Below, piece after piece: positions 23,751-41,405 of a DNA stretch of 64,000 bases. The DNA comes from Malacoraja senta (taxonomy: Eukaryota): NCBI GenBank assembly GCA_038087875.1, contig CM075996.1, positions 4,280,001 to 4,344,000 of the forward strand, written 5' to 3'. A program made the position numbers and the translations under genes. Within the stretch, counting starts at the first letter, position 1. Every line of letters starts with the position of its first letter. The notes under the pieces were generated by a model. It saw only the letters and a list, made by a program, of their open reading frames with translations. It was not told the origin of the DNA and searched no databases.

Positions 23751-26360
23751 AAAGCCGAGCAGCTAAAGGAAGAACCGTTGGATAATGGAGAGAAGGGACA
23801 ATCTCACTGGAGTTTTGTGTGCTGAGACTTCAAATGGCTTGCAGCCTTTTGAGTGTGAACAGTGGTACTTTTTCTATGGTTAAAAAACAAAAACTGGCTT
23901 CATAGCAGAGTGAAGTTTACACAGTGTTTCCACGAGCCAGCGAATTCCTGGTAGAAGTGCACATTTCTCCGTAACTTTGAACTCTGTGCCGTTCCACTGA
24001 TGTTATGTAACAACCAGGAACCACCTGCTTGTAACTGGACCCTGCCTGATCTTTTCCCGATTAGCTTGTGTTTCTCAGGGCTGTTGGCCTTGAGATGGTG
24101 GAAACCAAACAGCAGGCTGTTAAAATACTCCAGGCCTAAATACTTGGCCGAGGCTGAGCTTGTTACTCCTGTTGATTGCGACAAAGTCCAGTTAACTACA
24201 GAGTGGAGGAGCGACTTCACCTTGCTTGTGTGAGACAACACACACACACACACAGAGCTGACCGTGGCAATCTTCACAACGCTAGCCATATTAAACAATT
24301 GCAAGTTATTAAAGAATACCTGTGTGCGAATACGCTGTCTTCTGCCATCCCAAGCTATCCGGATCATAAAAGACCTGGTCCACAGTGTGAGATGAACCGT
24401 CAATGGGATGGCTACAGGTGTCTTCTCCTCCCCTGACCTGTGAAAGACGGGGGGAGGGGGGGGGGAATGAACCTCGGTTTCCTGCGAATTGTCCTCCTGC
24501 GATCACCTGCATGTGTGTCGCTTGTGATTCCCGCCAAGGTTGCATTGTCTGCATGTCTTTCCAGCTTAATCATGAAGAATGGGACTTAGTGAGGCTTGCT
24601 CACTCAGGGATGAGGGTGCATTATCAAGAACTGACTGGGGAAGTTGGAGATGTAGGTATGGCAGCCTGAAGAAGGGTCTCGACCCCCCAACATCACCCAT
24701 TCCTTCTCGCCAGAGATGCTGCTGCCTGTCCCGCTGAGTCACTCCAGCTTTATGCGTCTATCTTGGGCATGGTAGCCATTGGGTGGGTTGGTCTCTTGAA
24801 CGTGGGGTTGATATTTTTGGGTCACGGCGAGAATATGCCCACCACATTGATCACAGTTTTCGTTGTAGCGGCCAGTCTCATCCCCAGTGGTAGATCCCCC
24901 AGCTCCAGAAGTGTGATTCATAGACAGTTGTCCCTGTTTAACCCTAACCCCTGAGCAGTGGGAGATGGGAATCCCCTACCCATCCCCACCTCACTGCTGG
25001 CCGGCTGGGTTTCAGCGTTTCCCAGGTAGTTAACCAGAGGTCATCAGCTCTCCTCAAACCATACACCCCCCCAAGCTTTGGTAAAGAGTTCTACCTTTGG
25101 ATTCCTGTAATCTCCCCCACTCCTGCCCCAAGGCTTATTTTCTTCAGAGAATAGCCTGTCCTTTTATTAACACACCCTCTCCCAGCGCATGGCCACCTTT
25201 CCGTGCAAGTTTCATCTCCAGGGTACAGAGAGGATGGAGAGTTGTGTAGAGTTATCCTTGCCTCACTCCCACTGGGGCAAAGAGTGACAAGAGCTCGACA
25301 ACACCAAGCAGAAGGCAGAGGCAGCAAAGAGCAGGTGGGAAGGAGATGGTTCCCCCTCCACCTTCCTCCCTCCTCACTTCCTTGCCCCATCCATCTCTCC
25401 CACTACCTCGCTCTCCTTTTCCCGTCCCCTTCCACCGATATCCCTTCCTCGAGCCTCGCATTTCATTCTTCTCACTATCTTGCATCCTTTTTGTCTCCTT
25501 TATATCTCCAGCCTTTAGAGTCATTGAGTGATACAGTGTGGAAACAGGCCCTTCGGCCCAACTTGCCCACACCGGCCAACATGTCCCAGCTACACTCGTC
25601 CCACCTGCCTGCCCTTGGTCCATATCCCTCCAAACTGTCTTATCCATGTACCTGTCTAACTAAATTTGTCGGCTACTCCGTCCATCTGACGATCAAAAAC
25701 CTTTCTCACCCGTACCCACCTATCACTTGCCAGGCCTTGTCCCACCCCCAGCTCTTCCAGCTTTCTCCCCCCACCCCACTCCCATCAGTCTGAAGGGTCC
25801 TGACCTAAAAACATCACCCATCCATGTCCTCCAGAGATGCCGCCAGACCACCTGAGTTTCAACAGCAGTTTGTGTATTTTTCTCTGCTTTTATTAGAAGT
25901 CTGATTTATATATCTTCCAATTGTGTATTCTTATTGCGGCATAATTAATCTCAGTTCGTGTTTGCTGAATTATGAGTTAACGCTAACTATCATTGTGCTG
26001 ACTGGAAAGTGTTAAAAATGTTTGGAAAGAGAGAAGTGTAATTATAATCCTCCTTTCCCTGTGAGACATTAACCACAGTTAATAGACTTTTGGATGTTAT
26101 GCAATCGACTGTGTTAGCTGTAATGTTCCAGTGACGCAGAATGAATGGTTCTTTGAACAGGAATCGGCTTCATCTGGCGTGGTGCCAGTGCTGGTTACTG
26201 GCACAAAGGTGAAGTGCCTGCAGTGAGGGGGAGAGTTGGGGTGAGCTCGGCTTTCCAGTACTGATGATTGGAAGGTGTTTACTGGAGTGGGGTTTGCAGA
26301 CTGACACAGCCAGTGAGGGGCTCTGTGTGGGGGGGAATGTTGGAGGTTCTTGCCATGCTT

Positions 26361-26478
26361 CTTCTTCTTGCGTATGGCGTGCACAGCCTAAAGTTGTAGG
26401 ACAACTTGTTCTATTTGATCTTATTTGATTGTGCACGCCGGATTGATTGCATTCGTGAAGGTTGCAATCTTCCACCCC
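26361..26478 (-). mobile_element. Second copy of the HDV-headed retroposon, ribozyme internally deleted
   Basis: TSD CTTGCCATGCTT at 26349-26360 and 26479-26490; near-identical body; same 5' start GGGGTGG. Confidence 0.85.
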
Positions 26479-37185: not shown

Positions 37186-39339
37186 TATATCTCCACATCT
37201 ACTCTATCCAAGCCTTTCACTCTTCTGTACTCACAATACTGTGAGACCATTCTCGGAAAACACCCGATTGCTCAAATTCACAGAAAAGTTAAACTAAGTA
37301 TGACTGCATACATTAAAAAAAATCTAGAAATCTGAAATAAAAGTTTAAAAAATGCTGGAAGCACTTCCGCAGGTCAGCAACAGTTGTGGAAAGAAAAGTA
37401 GAATTAATGAATTGGGTTGAAGTTCCCTCATCAGAACTGTTTTTATTTATAATATAAGGCCGCCCTGGCTCATCCAAAAATATCCATCTCAGGATTTTTT
37501 TAAACAATTGCTCATCTATACGAGTGTTGCAAGGACTGGCTTTTCTGTAAAGAACTTCCCTTTTTCAGAATTAAAAGGATTGGACTATGATGACAGTTTG
37601 CACGGTTTAAATTCATCATAATCTAAACCTTTTAGTTCTGAGAAGTGCTTTGAGAGCTGGATGTTATGAGGTGGTAAGAATAGCCTTCTACTGCCATAAA
37701 TAAAAATAGCTCAAATGAAAGGACTTGAAGCTGATACATTCATTTCAGACTAAAATTGAAAGAGGTAACTTAGACAAGTTATTGGTAAAAAGGATCTGAT
37801 GGTCTGGAGAAATTGCAACAGCCCCTCAAAAAATGGTTGAGTCTAGGGAAAATTAAATCTACAAAAAGGAACAAAATGCAAAATACTGGAGAAATTCAGT
37901 GGGTCAGGCAGCAACTGTGGAAAGAATTGATAGGCAATATTTGGGGTTGGTATCATTCTTCAGATTCAACCCTGTGCATTCACTCTAGATGCCATCTGAC
38001 GTGCTGAGTTCCCTTTGCATTTTACACAGGACTCCAACATCTGCAGTTCCTTGCGTCTCCAATCAAGAGAAAGTGCTTCGATTCGGTTTCACTCCCTGCA
38101 AATGCTGCCTGATCGGCTGAGTTATTATGTGCATTTTTTCTTCCAATGCTATGTCCTGATATTATACTGCAGTGGTATTGGTATATTATTGTTAGGTGCA
38201 CCAAGAGGCACTTTGTGTAGGAATGAACTGCAGATGCTGCTTTACATCGAATGTAGACACAATAAATACTGGAGTAACTCAGTGGGTAGGGCAGCATCTC
38301 TGGAGAAAAGGAACAAATGTTGTTTTGGCTCGAGACCCAACTTCAGTAAATGAAACATTTTTGTTTTCCATGTTACCTGGAAATCATACCGTATTATTAT
38401 TTTATAATAATTATAATCACTATTGTTTATTGTACAATTATTGTTTAGTTGGACTATAATAGTTTATTTAATTTAATTAGTTTTTTTATATTCTGATCTC
38501 TATTGTTGTTGATAATGGGGTTTATAAAGTATTATGTTATGCTGCTGCATGTAAGAATTTAATTGTTCGGAACATATGCCAATAAAACACTCCTGACTCT
38601 GTTGACTACGAAGACACAAAATATTGGAGTAACTCATTAGTAAGGGTAACGTTATTGATTAGTACGGGTGTCAGGGTTTATAGGGAGAAGGTGGGAGAAT
38701 GGGGTTAGGAGGCTGTAGCCTCCCTTTGTAGCCTCCCATCTGTAGCCTCCCTTTGATCTAGTATTTTGTTGGTTCACATGCTTGATCAATGGTGTTTTAT
38801 CATTAATGTTTTATTATTATTAATGTTTAGTGTTTTCTGAGTCATTCGTAACTGTCACTGTATGTCATGTCGTTACTTGTGGGCGGAGCACCAAGGCAAA
38901 TTCCTTGTATGTGAATACTTGGCCAATAAACGTACTTACTTAGATCAGCCATGATTGAATGGCGGGAGTGGACTTGATGGGCCGAACGGCCTAATTCTGC
39001 TCCTATTATTTATGACATGACCTTATTAGCACATCATGGAGTGCAAAATAGAAAATTGTGCAGAATACTGTGTTAAAGCTACAGAGAAAGTGTAGATAAA
39101 ATAAAAATAAGGTGCAAGTACCTTAATGCAACTTTTGCACTTTTTTTTACAAGTGAATTGAACACGTAGGACATCGGAGCGGTGGTGTAGTTTGTAGTTT
39201 GTTCTGTTTGCTGTTTGTAGTTTGTACTGTTTGTAGTTTGTTTGTTTGATTTTTTGCACAAAGTCCGCGAGCATTGCCACTTTTCATTTCACTGCACATC
39301 TCGTATGTGTATGTGACGAATAGACTTGACTTGGTGAGT

Positions 39340-39393
39340 GGGGTGGGAGATTGCGACCTTCACGTGGTCCGCCCTGTTTCGACCAACGCAATC
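39340..39393 (+). ncRNA. Compact HDV-like self-cleaving ribozyme (predicted)
   Basis: P1 GGGGUGG/CCGCCCU with G1-U wobble; P2 GAUUGCG/CGCAAUC; P3 ACC/GGU; L3 UUCACGU; mini-P4 U(UUCG)A; J4/2 CCAA. Confidence 0.78.
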
Positions 39394-39490
39394 AACCCGG
39401 CGTGCACAATCAAATAAGATCAAATAGAACAAGTTGTCCTACAACTTTAGGCTGTGCACGCCATACGCAAGAAGAAGAAGAAGAAGAAGT
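39340..39490 (+). mobile_element. ~150-bp non-autonomous retroposon with HDV-like ribozyme head and (GAA)n tail
   Basis: TSD CTTGGTGAGT at 39330-39339 and 39491-39500; second copy at 26361-26478. Confidence 0.85.
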
Positions 39491-39614
39491 CTTGGTGAGT
39501 GTGGAGGATGGAGCTGGGTGCTGGGGCTGGTGCAGTGGCTCAAGGCTGCCCTCTGCCGCCGCCTCCCCAAGGCCGCAAGGCCCGCGCTGCCCTGGCAACC
39601 ACCCGGACGTGAAG

Positions 39615-39717: not shown

Positions 39718-40854
39718 GTGAGTCCCGGCGCGGGCCCGCGATTCATTCATATCGTCGTTAAAGAGGGTTTGAAAAAACACACGGGGCCGGATAATCCCGA
39801 GATAATCACTGCTGGTCCCAACGTTAACCATCTAAACGGAGGGAGGGCGGGGTGCGAGCTGAGCTGAGGCGGAGCAGACGGGGTAGGCCGCAGGCCTGGG
39901 CCTGGGCTGGCAGTGATGGCGGCTCTGCGTGGCCCTGTGCCCGGCTCCCCGGATGGAAGCCGCTCCTTCAGGCCCCGGGTTCGGAGCACGGCGCTGGCTC
40001 GATTGTAATCTAACCCTAACCCTAACCCTTTTTAGTTTCTGGTGCCCTAATCAACAATTGTCTTTCTGCTGAAGATAAAGCTCACAATCAATGATTCATG
40101 GAGCAACTGAGCGGGACAGGCAGCATCTCTGGAGGGGAGGGGAGGGGGAATGGGTGACGTTTCGGGTCGAGACCCTTCTTCAGGCTGCCTGGTTTAACGC
40201 GCAACAAGAGCTTTTCACTGTATCTCGGTACACGTGTCAGTAATAATAAACAAAACTGGCAACTGAGTCTGAAGAAGGGGCTCGACCCCAAAATGACACC
40301 CATTCCTTCTCTCCAGAGATGCTGCCTGTCCCGCTGAGTTACTCCAGCATTTTGTGTCTTCTTGGCCCACAACTCGCACCCCCCCCCCCCCCCCCCCTTC
40401 AGCATCGATCAGAGGGCCGACCATTCATTAAACCCTGCTGGCAACGGGCTAGGAATGCCACAGGATTGGTGTAATAACCGTAGCTGGTTAGTTCTGAGTG
40501 ATGGGTGCTATTAGATAAGCTAAAATGACAAGAGGGGCAGCCATAAGTAAAAACAGCTGTCCTGATTTGGAGAGGGATGGCGAGGATAAAAGGACAACCT
40601 TGGGTGAGACCAATGTGACAGTTACTAGCAGATTGTGCAGACATAAGGAACTACACATAATGATTTGGAAATGGGTCCAAAGAAGGGTCCTGACCCAAAA
40701 CACCCCCTATCCATGTTTCCGAGAGATGCTGCCTAACCCACTGAGTTACCCCAGCACTTTGTGTCTTATTTTCACTAACAGATTATGCCATGCCCATGTC
40801 AAATCTCACGATTCTACCTGCAAATTTGCAGCGGTCAATTAATCTTCCAATCCA

Positions 40855-41060
40855 AGGTACACAAAAATGCTGGAGAAACTCAGCGGGTGCAGCAGCATCT
40901 ATGGAGCGAAGGAAATAGGTAACGTTTCGGGCCGAAACCCTTCTTCAGACCCGAAACGTTACCTATTTCCTTCGCTCCATAGATGCTGCTGCACCCGCTG
41001 AGTTTCTCCAGCATTTTTGTGTACCTTCGATTTTCCAGCATCTGCAGTTCCTTCTTTAAC
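40855..41060. mobile_element. Penelope-derived fold-back insert in RPSA intron 1
   Basis: Inverted arms; 14-bp TSD AATCTTCCAATCCA (40841-40854, 41061-41074). Confidence 0.85.
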
Positions 41061-41405
41061 AATCTTCCAATCCAGATGTCCTTGGGATGTGGGAGGAAAC
41101 ACGTCACAGGGAGAAGGTGCAAACTCCAGTTGAGATCGGGATTGGATGCTGGTTTCTAGCATTGCGAGGCAGCAGCTTTACTAGCTGAACCAGGTGACTT
41201 ATTTGGAGACCCGGGTTCTGTAGCCTGGGTTTTCAACCTGCAAGGTATCTGCTCTAAACAGAATATGTCAACCACATGACATTCTGTTAATTTTAACAGA
41301 AAAGGCATTTCAGCTAATTTTAATGGTAACAGAACAATCTACCTCCTGGTGGCATGGTTTGCAAGTAAAATTGTTATCTCTGTGGTTCTGCTCGGCACTC
41401 CTGAG

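What the first reader, a model, noticed from the sequence alone, without database searches (positions are those of the whole stretch)
39340..39490. ~150-bp retroposon headed by a compact HDV-like ribozyme
Seen: directly after the 5' TSD (CTTGGTGAGT, repeated at 39491-39500) the sequence folds as the HDV double pseudoknot. P1 is GGGGUGG (39340-46)/CCGCCCU (39369-75) with the G1-U wobble. P2 is GAUUGCG (39349-55)/CGCAAUC (39387-93), P3 is ACC/GGU, and L3 UUCACGU fits the UYCHCGY consensus. G39376 can form P1.1, P4 is reduced to U(UUCG)A, and J4/2 is CCAA with candidate catalytic C39383. There is no tRNA/Pol III head and the tail is (GAA)n. Established: HDV-like ribozymes process the 5' ends of R2, RTE and L1Tc retrotransposons, and R2 SIDEs are ribozyme-headed non-autonomous elements. 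Inference: a SINE-like family released from host read-through transcripts by self-cleavage and copied by a partner LINE (the tail looks RTE/RTE-X-like). I do not know of such a family described in cartilaginous fishes.
Basis: partly seen in the sequence, partly recalled or inferred. Interest (0 to 1): 0.92.

Follow-up and report, generated by a model that had tools for sequence, protein, structure and literature searches.

The report
Ribozyme-headed short retroposon of an RTE LINE
A 151-base mobile element, present in thousands of copies in this genome, starts with a very small HDV/CPEB3-type self-cleaving RNA fold that it shares with its parent RTE-like LINE. It probably cuts itself out of host transcripts, and does not use the RNA polymerase III promoter that ordinary SINEs use.

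Summary

It belongs to a family of about 8,000-9,000 copies. Of 31 unique copies in the tail-selected loci, 27 begin at element positions 1-3.

I found the partner: an RTE-like LINE. It carries the same 54-nt head at its 5' end and shares the last ~40 nt, including its stop codon and the AAG tail. The short element is therefore an internal-deletion derivative, of the 'SIDE' type rather than a Pol III SINE.

Copies within the family show no covariation; they are young, neutrally decaying copies. Other retroelement families in the same genome carry full-size or P4-less ribozymes that match Rfam's CPEB3 ribozyme model above its cut-off. In one of these families all 10 fetched 5' ends start exactly at G1. 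Across four families, 97.6% of helix cells pair and 11 of 18 pairs change on both sides.

Self-cleavage was not shown. Only assembled contigs were available, so RNA 5' ends could not be mapped, and no intact parent ORF was seen.

Verdict: a real, well-supported new variant of a known kind (ribozyme-processed RTE plus a non-autonomous derivative). Interest is moderate to high.

The parts
39330..39339 (+). 5' target-site duplication CTTGGTGAGT
   Evidence: The same 10-mer recurs at 39491-39500.
39340..39393 (+). 54-nt minimal HDV/CPEB3-type ribozyme fold: P1, J1/2, P2, P3, L3, P3', P1', G for P1.1, 6-nt linker in place of P4, J4/2, P2'
   Evidence: descriptor hit; 3 per 10 Mb at random. (cross-family covariation).
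39340..39346 (+). P1 5' strand GGGGTGG. G39340 is the predicted first base after cleavage.
   Evidence: Pairs with 39369-39375. 27 of 31 tail-selected copies start at element positions 1-3.
39349..39355 (+). P2 5' strand GATTGCG, pairing with 39387-39393 CGCAATC
   Evidence: In one search, 6 of 7 P2 pairs change on both sides across families, and P2 is not part of the Rfam CM.
39356..39368 (+). P3 ACC/GGT around L3 TTCACGT
   Evidence: The same L3 occurs in families B, D and F and in the RF00622 consensus printed.
39369..39376 (+). P1 3' strand CCGCCCT plus G39376 (P1.1 partner of C39361)
   Evidence: The C22-G37 pair is invariant in 12 of 12 distinct rows.
39377..39382 (+). TTTCGA linker replacing P4
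   Evidence: In one search families A and D have no P4, while B and F have 8-bp or longer P4 hairpins at this place.
39383..39386 (+). J4/2 CCAA. C39383 is the candidate catalytic cytosine.
   Evidence: C then any base then AA is kept in 50 of 58 copies. Position 39384 varies C/G/A/T among subfamilies. The column is invariant across families.
39394..39438 (+). Middle part. Its first ~25 nt are shared with the parent LINE's 5' UTR; the rest is family-specific.
   Evidence: LINE 5' ends. The L083/L084 variant retains more of the LINE 5' UTR.
39439..39468 (+). 3' module shared with the LINE: the last codons, the TAG stop (39448-39450) and the ~18-nt 3' UTR
   Evidence: negated-pattern search. (the L078 ORF end ...STLDPQL, with its stop inside the shared tail).
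39469..39489 (+). (AAG)7 tail
   Evidence: Tail length varies among copies.
39491..39500 (+). 3' target-site duplication CTTGGTGAGT
26358..26478 (-). Second copy of the family in the window. A 20-nt deletion removes P3', P1', the linker and the catalytic C. It is flanked by GCATGGCAAG on both sides.

Best explanation
The element is a short, internally deleted, non-autonomous derivative of an RTE-like LINE. This is a 'SIDE' in the sense of Eickbush and Eickbush, not a Pol III SINE.

It keeps only two functional ends of its parent. The first 54 nt form a minimal, P4-less HDV/CPEB3-type ribozyme. The last ~40 nt plus an (AAG)n tail are what the LINE's reverse transcriptase would use to start target-primed reverse transcription.

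Proposed cycle: a copy lying in any transcribed region is read through by RNA polymerase II. The ribozyme cuts 5' of G39340 and creates the exact 5' end. The RTE protein, supplied in trans, binds the 3' module, nicks a target and copies the RNA. This yields full-length insertions flanked by ~10-bp duplications.

Shown here: the anatomy, the family, precise 5' ends, the shared ends with the LINE, and covariation of the fold across sister families. Inferred: catalysis, read-through transcription, and recognition of the 3' module by the RTE enzyme.
For: Family and ends:
- The head 29-mer has 8,111 hits and the tail 29-mer 8,647 hits at <=2 mismatches; reversed controls give 0.
- 29 of 30 tail-selected loci carry the head, 28 directly and 1 across a nested insertion.
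- 27 of 31 unique copies in the tail-selected loci start at positions 1-3.
- A flanking direct repeat of 9 or more matching bases was found in 49 of 58 copies.

Parent LINE:
- A search that negated SINE-specific bases found 458 hits. In roughly 45 of the 100 places listed, the tail is preceded by other, recurrent sequence.
- In L078 that sequence is the end of an ORF with a weak, sub-threshold zf-RVT match, whose stop lies inside the shared tail.
- Homologues P0001 and P0002 are 79% and 76% identical.
- One collinear copy on C1 has the ribozyme head, ~50 nt of 5' UTR and the endonuclease N-terminus, the endonuclease C-terminus and the tail.
- 16 of 18 LINE 5' ends fetched retain at least part of the ribozyme. 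Five start at positions 1-3, eleven at positions 5-43, and two (positions 63-64) lie 3' of it.

Fold:
- The strict descriptor hits only 39340 in the window and 3 times per 10 Mb at random.
- Sister families match Rfam RF00622 above its cut-off: L115 63.8 bits against a cut-off of 35. Genome-wide, 39 of 59 scored candidates are over the cut-off, and 0 of 14 control genomes ring.
- In family B, 10 of 10 fetched 5' ends with unrelated flanks start at G1.
- Across families A, B, D and F, 97.6% of cells pair against 75.8% in shuffles (0 of 500 reach it). 11 of 18 pairs change on both sides. Slid controls pair at 37-49%.

Literature:
- HDV-like ribozymes cleave at the 5' junction of RTE elements (PMC3774820 and PMC6765202, passages read).
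- P4-less minimal HDV-like ribozymes exist and self-cleave in vitro (bioRxiv 10.1101/2023.06.13.544163, passages read).
Against: - No cleavage assay exists, and no RNA 5'-end data could be obtained. All 24 runs offered were contigs, and laying four of them gave no starts.
- The window's ribozyme gets no Rfam match even when only 81 nt are searched.
- Within the family there is no covariation: 95.9% paired against 96.0% in shuffles.
- The nested MFE of the 54-mer is no better than shuffles, z = +0.28. ViennaRNA cannot score pseudoknots, so this is weak evidence either way.
- P4 is missing, and the activity of such a variant in a eukaryotic retroelement is untested.
- No intact parent ORF was seen. 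The longest open frame among the ten high-identity hits is 422 aa. The reverse-transcriptase core was not seen in P0002 or, judging by its length, in the one collinear copy. The family may therefore be extinct, or it may have been driven by another RTE.
- The cross-family covariation rests on about four lineages. Three of them were picked by a CM that already demands P1, P3 and P4 pairing. Only P2 is free of that bias.
Confidence: 0.8

Rival explanations
1. The head has the HDV-like shape by descent but is catalytically dead in the short element and in its parent, because the P4 loss killed it. On this view the sharp 5' end comes from transcription starting at G1, from an internal or upstream promoter, or from the reverse transcriptase simply copying to the end of a defined RNA.
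For: - There is no Rfam hit for the window copy.
- P4 is absent.
- No RNA end data are available.
- In L1Tc the ribozyme region also acts as a promoter at the DNA level (PMC3383444, abstract).
Against: - A second, independent P4-less family (D) keeps all helices through compensatory changes and scores above the RF00622 cut-off.
- All variation that marks subfamilies fits the fold: G-C/A-U at the P2 end, U.G/U-A in P1, and any base at J4/2 position 2.
- Minimal P4-less HDV-like ribozymes are active in vitro (10.1101/2023.06.13.544163, passages read).
- About 8,000 full-length copies imply that the head kept being selected in the source genes.
Confidence: 0.13
2. [quoted passage not shown]
For: Its size (~150 bp), high copy number and LINE-derived tail are SINE-like.
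Against: - No tRNA was found by ARAGORN, and Rfam gave no 5S, 7SL or tRNA match inside the element.
- The same head sits at the 5' end of the protein-coding parent LINE, which a Pol III head would not explain.
- The fold is far beyond chance and covaries across families.
Confidence: 0.04
3. The fold is a chance resemblance in a repeat, and the family has no ribozyme history.
For: Rfam is silent on this copy, and there is no within-family covariation.
Against: - The descriptor hits 3 times per 10 Mb at random, yet it falls on base 1 of the element.
- L3, the CCCTG stretch and the C-N-A-A junction are shared with Rfam-recognised sister ribozymes that sit at the same place in sister retroelements.
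Confidence: 0.02

Closest known systems
R2 SIDEs and R2/R1 hybrid SIDEs of Drosophila (Eickbush and Eickbush 2012, PMC3414825; abstract and passages read)
   Same: These are non-autonomous elements made of the parent's 5' HDV-like ribozyme joined to a LINE 3' end. They depend on co-transcription plus self-cleavage and on the parent's reverse transcriptase. Their 5' junctions resemble the parent's.
   Different: R2 SIDEs sit only in 28S rDNA, have few copies, are 0.5 kb long, and have a ~180-nt ribozyme with P4. [quoted passage not shown] The element here is 151 bp, dispersed genome-wide with ~10-bp duplications, has ~8,000-9,000 copies, derives from an RTE-like parent, and has a 54-nt P4-less ribozyme.
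L1Tc / NARTc of Trypanosoma cruzi (PMC3185411 and PMC3383444, abstracts read)
   Same: An autonomous LINE and its truncated non-autonomous partner share an HDV-like ribozyme in their first 77 nt, which frees the RNA from co-transcripts.
   Different: This is a protist of the L1Tc/ingi clade. [quoted passage not shown] No promoter activity is known or tested for the element here.
HDV-like ribozymes at the 5' end of RTE retrotransposons (Ruminski et al. 2011; not held, known to me only through PMC6765202 and PMC3774820 passages)
   Same: The element clade and position are the same, and cleavage coincides with the element's 5' junction. Those elements have no promoter of their own and are transcribed from host or neighbouring units.
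   Different: I could not read which species and which ribozyme sizes were reported. A P4-less form and a high-copy short derivative are not mentioned in the passages I saw.
Mammalian CPEB3 ribozyme (Rfam RF00622)
   Same: It shares the G1.U wobble, L3 UUCACGU, CCCUG after P1, and a C-N-A-A junction. Sister families B, D and F in this genome score 35-64 bits against a cut-off of 35.
   Different: CPEB3 is a single-copy intronic ribozyme with a P4 hairpin. The window's ribozyme has different P1, P2 and P3 sequences, has no P4, and does not reach any reportable score. It works like this ribozyme but is not filed as a member of RF00622.
Minimal P4-less HDV-like ribozymes (drz-Mtgn type, theta ribozymes; bioRxiv 10.1101/2023.06.13.544163, passages read; Riccitelli et al. 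2014 seen only as a reference)
   Same: They are about 50-60 nt, double-pseudoknotted, and have P4 replaced by a short linker. Self-scission was shown in vitro for that class.
   Different: They were found in metagenomes and gut phages next to tRNAs. The preprint says the origin and role of minimal variants 'remain to be determined'. Here the setting is a eukaryotic retroelement head.

Membership tests
HDV-like (delta-type) self-cleaving ribozymes | Nested double pseudoknot: P1, P2 (crossing P1), P3, and P1.1 between L3 and the base after P1 | tested here: met
   All pairs are present in the window copy. Across four families 97.6% of cells pair, 11 of 18 pairs change on both sides, and slid controls pair at 37-49%.
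HDV-like (delta-type) self-cleaving ribozymes | Cleavage site 5' of position 1, with G1 in a wobble with U at the base of P1 | tested here: met
   G39340 lies opposite T39375. The pair is G.U in 52 of 57 family copies and in 8 of 8 cross-family rows that have a letter there. This tests the sequence only; cleavage was not tested.
HDV-like (delta-type) self-cleaving ribozymes | Catalytic cytosine at the start of J4/2 | tested here: met
   C39383 is followed by N-A-A. This is kept in 50 of 58 copies and is invariant across families. Its chemical role is not testable here.
HDV-like (delta-type) self-cleaving ribozymes | P4 helix | tested here: not met
   Six unpaired-looking bases, TTTCGA, stand where families B and F have a hairpin. 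P4 is known to be dispensable in minimal variants (10.1101/2023.06.13.544163, passage read), so I do not treat it as defining.
HDV-like (delta-type) self-cleaving ribozymes | Mg2+-dependent self-scission | not testable with these tools
   This needs an in vitro transcription and cleavage assay.
Rfam RF00622 CPEB3_ribozyme | Covariance-model score at or above the gathering score (35 bits) | tested here: not met
   The window copy has no match at E<=10, even on 81 nt. It is met by sister families: L115 63.8 bits, L114 52.6 bits, and 39 places genome-wide.
SINE in the strict sense | 5' head derived from a Pol III gene (tRNA, 7SL, 5S) with an internal promoter | tested here: not met
   ARAGORN found 0 genes. 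No Rfam family matches the head. The head is the parent LINE's own 5' end.
SIDE (short internally deleted element of a non-LTR retrotransposon) | 5' end and 3' end both identical or near-identical to one autonomous-type LINE, with the coding middle missing | tested here: met
   The head and about the first 25 nt after it match LINE 5' ends. The last ~40 nt match the LINE's ORF end and tail. The L083/L084 variant is intermediate.
SIDE (short internally deleted element of a non-LTR retrotransposon) | Mobilised in trans by the parent's enzyme after co-transcription | not testable with these tools
   This is inferred from the target-site duplications and the shared 3' module.
RTE clade of LINEs (the partner) | Single ORF starting with an AP-endonuclease domain shortly after the 5' end, and no ORF1 | tested here: inconclusive
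   The endonuclease N-terminus begins ~125 nt after the 5' end in L093, but all copies seen are broken. The reverse-transcriptase core was not seen in family A.
RTE clade of LINEs (the partner) | Very short 3' UTR ending in a short tandem repeat | tested here: met
   The stop codon lies ~18 nt before the (AAG)n tail.
RTE clade of LINEs (the partner) | Phylogenetic placement of the reverse transcriptase within RTE | not tested
   Only indirect evidence is available. Relatives of sister family B are ~950-1,000-aa proteins with PF03372, PF14529 and PF00078 domains on ~3.1-3.4-kb contigs.

The most novel reading that the evidence does not exclude
This genome holds a radiation of CPEB3-sequence-type ribozymes used as 5' processing heads by RTE-like retroelements: full-size forms (families B, F and the L134 type) and at least two independently P4-less forms (A, the finding, and D).

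If so, two things follow. First, the mammalian CPEB3 intron ribozyme would be an exapted RTE head rather than a mammalian invention. Second, the ~54-nt form would show that P4 is dispensable in vivo, in a vertebrate, for a ribozyme that has supported thousands of retrotranspositions without any Pol III promoter.
Probability: 0.35. Interest if true: 0.8.

Novelty: new variant of a known kind. Interest (0 to 1): 0.6.

Why it matters
Ribozyme-processed LINEs and their deletion derivatives are known, but they are described as rare and low-copy. This case shows such a derivative reaching SINE-like abundance (~8,000-9,000 copies) with nothing but a 54-nt ribozyme and a ~40-nt 3' recognition module. 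That is close to the minimum a non-LTR retroposon needs.

It also places a P4-less 'minimal' HDV-like ribozyme in a eukaryotic retroelement. That class has so far been reported from metagenomes and phages, with its role called undetermined.

Finally, the genome holds sister ribozymes that pass the Rfam model built for the mammalian CPEB3 ribozyme. This makes the origin of that ribozyme directly testable by comparative genomics.

In the library available to me I found no paper linking CPEB3-type ribozymes to RTE elements (3 papers hold the three words; in the one whose CPEB3 and RTE passages I read, the two are not linked, and the RTE passages of the other two, draw no such link). I also found none listing HDV-like ribozymes together with sharks, skates or other cartilaginous fishes (none of the 15 top-ranked listed papers holds either 'HDV-like' or 'ribozyme'). 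The key paper, Ruminski et al. 2011, and Webb et al. 2009 were not held, so prior description cannot be excluded.

Tried and rejected
- **Rfam on the element**: no HDV-like or CPEB3 hit. I do not take this as evidence against the fold, because the models include P4 and other helix sequences.
- **Within-family covariation**: uninformative. 58 copies differ from the majority by 5.1% on average, through neutral decay.
- **DNA search with the 3' half**: returned nothing, because the tool skips very common words. I replaced it with pattern searches.
A 34-place version worked.
- **Strict descriptor on one copy each of other RTE-like families** (L111-L115): no hits. L114 and L115 have a mutated P1 in those copies, and Rfam then found their ribozymes. 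L111 and L112 gave nothing convincing.
- **L113 (family C)**: it has an HDV-like fold with one A.C mismatch and only a weak Rfam hit to HDV-F-prausnitzii (21.3 bits, E 2.2). MAFFT misaligned its 3' part, so I dropped that one row before the count.
- **Metagenome scan** with a helix-free ribozyme pattern: 2 loci, both unrelated chance matches.
- **Sequencing runs**: 24 runs listed, all Logan contigs. Laying X1, X5, X6 and X12 confirmed the element boundary at 39339/39340 and the variable sites. It cannot show RNA starts, strand or expression, and X1 is flagged as probably DNA.
- **Nested MFE folding**: cannot represent the pseudoknot. The 136-nt fold does recover P2 and a 3' domain (z = -2.0).
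- **Earlier notes of this scan**: nothing.
- **Host taxon**: not determined. Named relatives of the LINE proteins are from teleosts, amphioxus, echinoderms and insects.

Full report
**Observation.** One search shows the element exactly as described. CTTGGTGAGT stands at 39330-39339 and at 39491-39500. The 151 bases between them begin GGGGTGG and end in seven AAG repeats.

- P1: 39340-46 with 39369-75, with G39340 opposite T39375.
- P2: 39349-55 with 39387-93.
- P3: 39356-58 with 39366-68, around the loop TTCACGT.
- G39376 follows P1.
- CCAA at 39383-86 precedes the 3' strand of P2.

I wrote a strict HDV-like descriptor and ran it on the whole window. It hits only 39340 on either strand, and 3 times in 10 Mb of composition-matched random sequence. 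ARAGORN finds no tRNA-like gene. Rfam finds no family inside the element, even when given only 81 nt.

**The family.**
- A search of the window's own 1.94-Gb genome with the whole element returned 40 scored matches, all starting at query base 1. The flanks show unrelated DNA and direct repeats abutting GGGGTGG.
- A 29-mer from the tail has 8,647 matches at two or fewer mismatches, and a 29-mer from the head has 8,111. Both reversed controls give 0.
- Of 30 loci chosen by the tail alone, 28 carry the head at the expected distance, 1 carries it across a nested insertion, and 1 is a short 5'-truncated tail.
- Among the 31 unique copies in those loci, 27 start at element positions 1-3.
- A flanking repeat of nine or more matching bases was found for 49 of 58 full-length copies.
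- The 58 copies differ from their majority sequence by 5.1% on average (median 3.9%), and 29 of 58 still have every feature of the ribozyme.
- A second copy lies in the window at 26358-26478 on the minus strand, with a 20-nt deletion of the core.

**The partner.** A pattern that kept 14 tail bases but forbade three SINE-specific bases upstream gave 458 hits. In roughly 45 of the 100 places listed, the tail is preceded by one other recurrent sequence.

- One such copy was already in hand, in L078. It is the end of an ORF (...SPACDCGHPDQTISHIVNDC...STLDPQL) whose TAG stop lies inside the shared tail, about 18 nt before the AAG repeats. Pfam gives its homologues only a weak, sub-threshold zf-RVT match.
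- Homologues are a 292-aa protein from a JGI contig, which reads through the same tail, and a 496-aa 'reverse transcriptase' of an eel. They are 79% and 76% identical.
- The endonuclease part of the eel protein found about ten places at 80-86% identity in this genome.
- One of these, on contig C1, has the ribozyme from position 9, then about 50 nt of 5' UTR, an ATG, and the start of an AP-endonuclease domain. The tail lies collinear with it, about 2.8 kb downstream.
- I then fetched 17 more LINE 5' ends. Of 18 in all, 5 start at positions 1-3, 11 at positions 5-43, and 2 (positions 63-64) lie 3' of the ribozyme.

The short element thus equals the LINE's first ~80 nt plus its last ~40 nt. A rarer variant (L083/L084) still keeps more of the LINE's 5' UTR. 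This is the architecture that Eickbush and Eickbush called a SIDE (PMC3414825). The short 3' UTR, the repeat tail and the single ORF starting with the endonuclease point to the RTE clade. The reverse-transcriptase core of this family was not seen, and no tree was made.

**Is the fold a ribozyme?** Copies of one family cannot answer this, because they decay neutrally after insertion. In the 58-copy alignment, 95.9% of cells pair against 96.0% in shuffles.

The useful comparison came from other RTE-like families found:
- Rfam matched the 5' UTRs of two of them to RF00622, the mammalian CPEB3 ribozyme, well above its cut-off: 63.8 and 52.6 bits against 35.
- In that family (B), 10 of 10 fetched 5' ends, each with different upstream DNA, begin at GGGGATC, the G1 of the ribozyme.
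- A genome-wide run of RF00622 gave 51 matches, 39 of them over the cut-off, out of 59 scored. None of 14 control genomes rang.
- Six of the matched places were fetched. They revealed a second P4-less, 53-nt form (family D, four copies), another full-size form (F), and a truncated copy whose P4 start resembles the CPEB3 model consensus.

MAFFT aligns families A (the finding and its LINE), B, D and F without trouble. 11 of 18 pairs change on both sides. P2 is not part of the Rfam model and so was not selected for, and it changes on both sides in 6 of its 7 pairs. L3, the C-G pair of P1.1, CCCTG and the C-N-A-A junction are constant.

Two caveats apply. About four lineages carry all of this signal, and one further family (C, L113) was left out because its 3' half misaligned. 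A script-based comparison that included it gave 8 double changes against A and one unpaired cell.

**Mechanism.** Published work places HDV-like ribozymes at the 5' junction of RTE, R2, R4 and L1Tc elements, where they free the element RNA from a host co-transcript (PMC3774820, PMC6765202, passages read). P4-less HDV-like ribozymes are known and self-cleave in vitro (10.1101/2023.06.13.544163, passages read).

The most likely cycle is therefore:
1. Read-through transcription of a copy.
2. Self-cleavage 5' of G39340.
3. Recognition of the 3' module and AAG tail by the RTE enzyme in trans.
4. Target-primed reverse transcription to the very 5' end.

Steps 1-3 are inferred; the products of step 4 are what the genome shows.

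The 3' two-thirds of the RNA can also form a 9-bp long-range helix (39399-407 with 39454-62) around a 7-bp hairpin (39431-37 with 39441-47), as in the MFE fold. Within-family counts neither support nor reject this.

**What is missing.**
- There is no cleavage assay.
- There are no RNA ends. The 24 runs offered were all contigs, and the four laid show only that the element boundary and the variable sites recur in other data sets.
- No intact parent ORF was seen; the longest open frame among close copies is 422 aa.
- The host taxon is not established.

**Novelty.** The kind is known: RTE ribozymes, R2 SIDEs, NARTc. New, as far as the papers I could reach go, is the combination of three features: a P4-less 54-nt head in a eukaryotic retroelement, an RTE-derived SIDE at SINE-like copy number, and sister heads that pass the CPEB3 model outside mammals. 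Ruminski et al. 2011 and Webb et al. 2009 were not held, and no Dfam or Repbase look-up was possible, so an earlier description cannot be ruled out.

Noticed in passing
L115:886-969 (+), L114:866-949 (-), L118-L127: A second RTE-like LINE family starts with a full-size ribozyme that matches Rfam's mammalian CPEB3 ribozyme model above its cut-off (63.8 and 52.6 bits against 35). 10 of 10 fetched 5' ends begin at its G1. Some copies have long open frames (up to ~1,000 aa).
   Followed up: partly
L130-L133 (G000 C13, C2, C6, C20): A further 53-nt P4-less ribozyme family (D) has P3 and L3 like CPEB3 and a linker like the finding's. It is followed by a Lys-rich-looking stretch. All four copies have a T just before the GGGG start. 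What element it heads is unknown.
   Followed up: no
L134 (G000:C10:9303882-9303997): A 5'-truncated ribozyme copy whose J1/4 and P4 start (GTCAGATTCTG) resemble the CPEB3 model consensus printed. This is the closest thing seen here to the mammalian sequence.
   Followed up: no
L099, L101, L102, L105, L106, L107 (upstream flanks): Several family A LINE 5' ends are joined directly to an inverted piece of the same LINE's 3' coding region, with different junctions. These are head-to-inverted-tail arrangements that look like template switching or twin priming.
   Followed up: no
L125 and L114 (5' ends of family B copies): Three to four tandem repeats of a 26-nt piece of the ribozyme (from the end of P1 through P3') stand in front of a complete head. 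They may be products of repeated template jumps at the RNA 5' end.
   Followed up: no
L070:~790-1400 (oriented as): A ~740-bp fragment encoding a GIY-YIG-like motif (…LIYIGETKRRFGDRFAEH…) is inserted inside a copy of the short element. It looks like the 3' part of a Penelope-like element. That label is recalled, not tested.
   Followed up: no
window 39259-39333: The element is inserted at the end of another highly repeated sequence; contig depth in three runs rises over 39262-39333. More copies of a common repeat holding CTGGAGTAACTCAG-like words lie at ~40100-40400 and ~40880-41160.
   Followed up: no
P0001, P0002: The parent LINE's C-terminus is 76-79% identical to proteins from an eel genome and from a JGI contig, and the latter reads through the same 3' tail. 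This is unusually close if the host is not a teleost, and could mean horizontal spread of this RTE.
   Followed up: no
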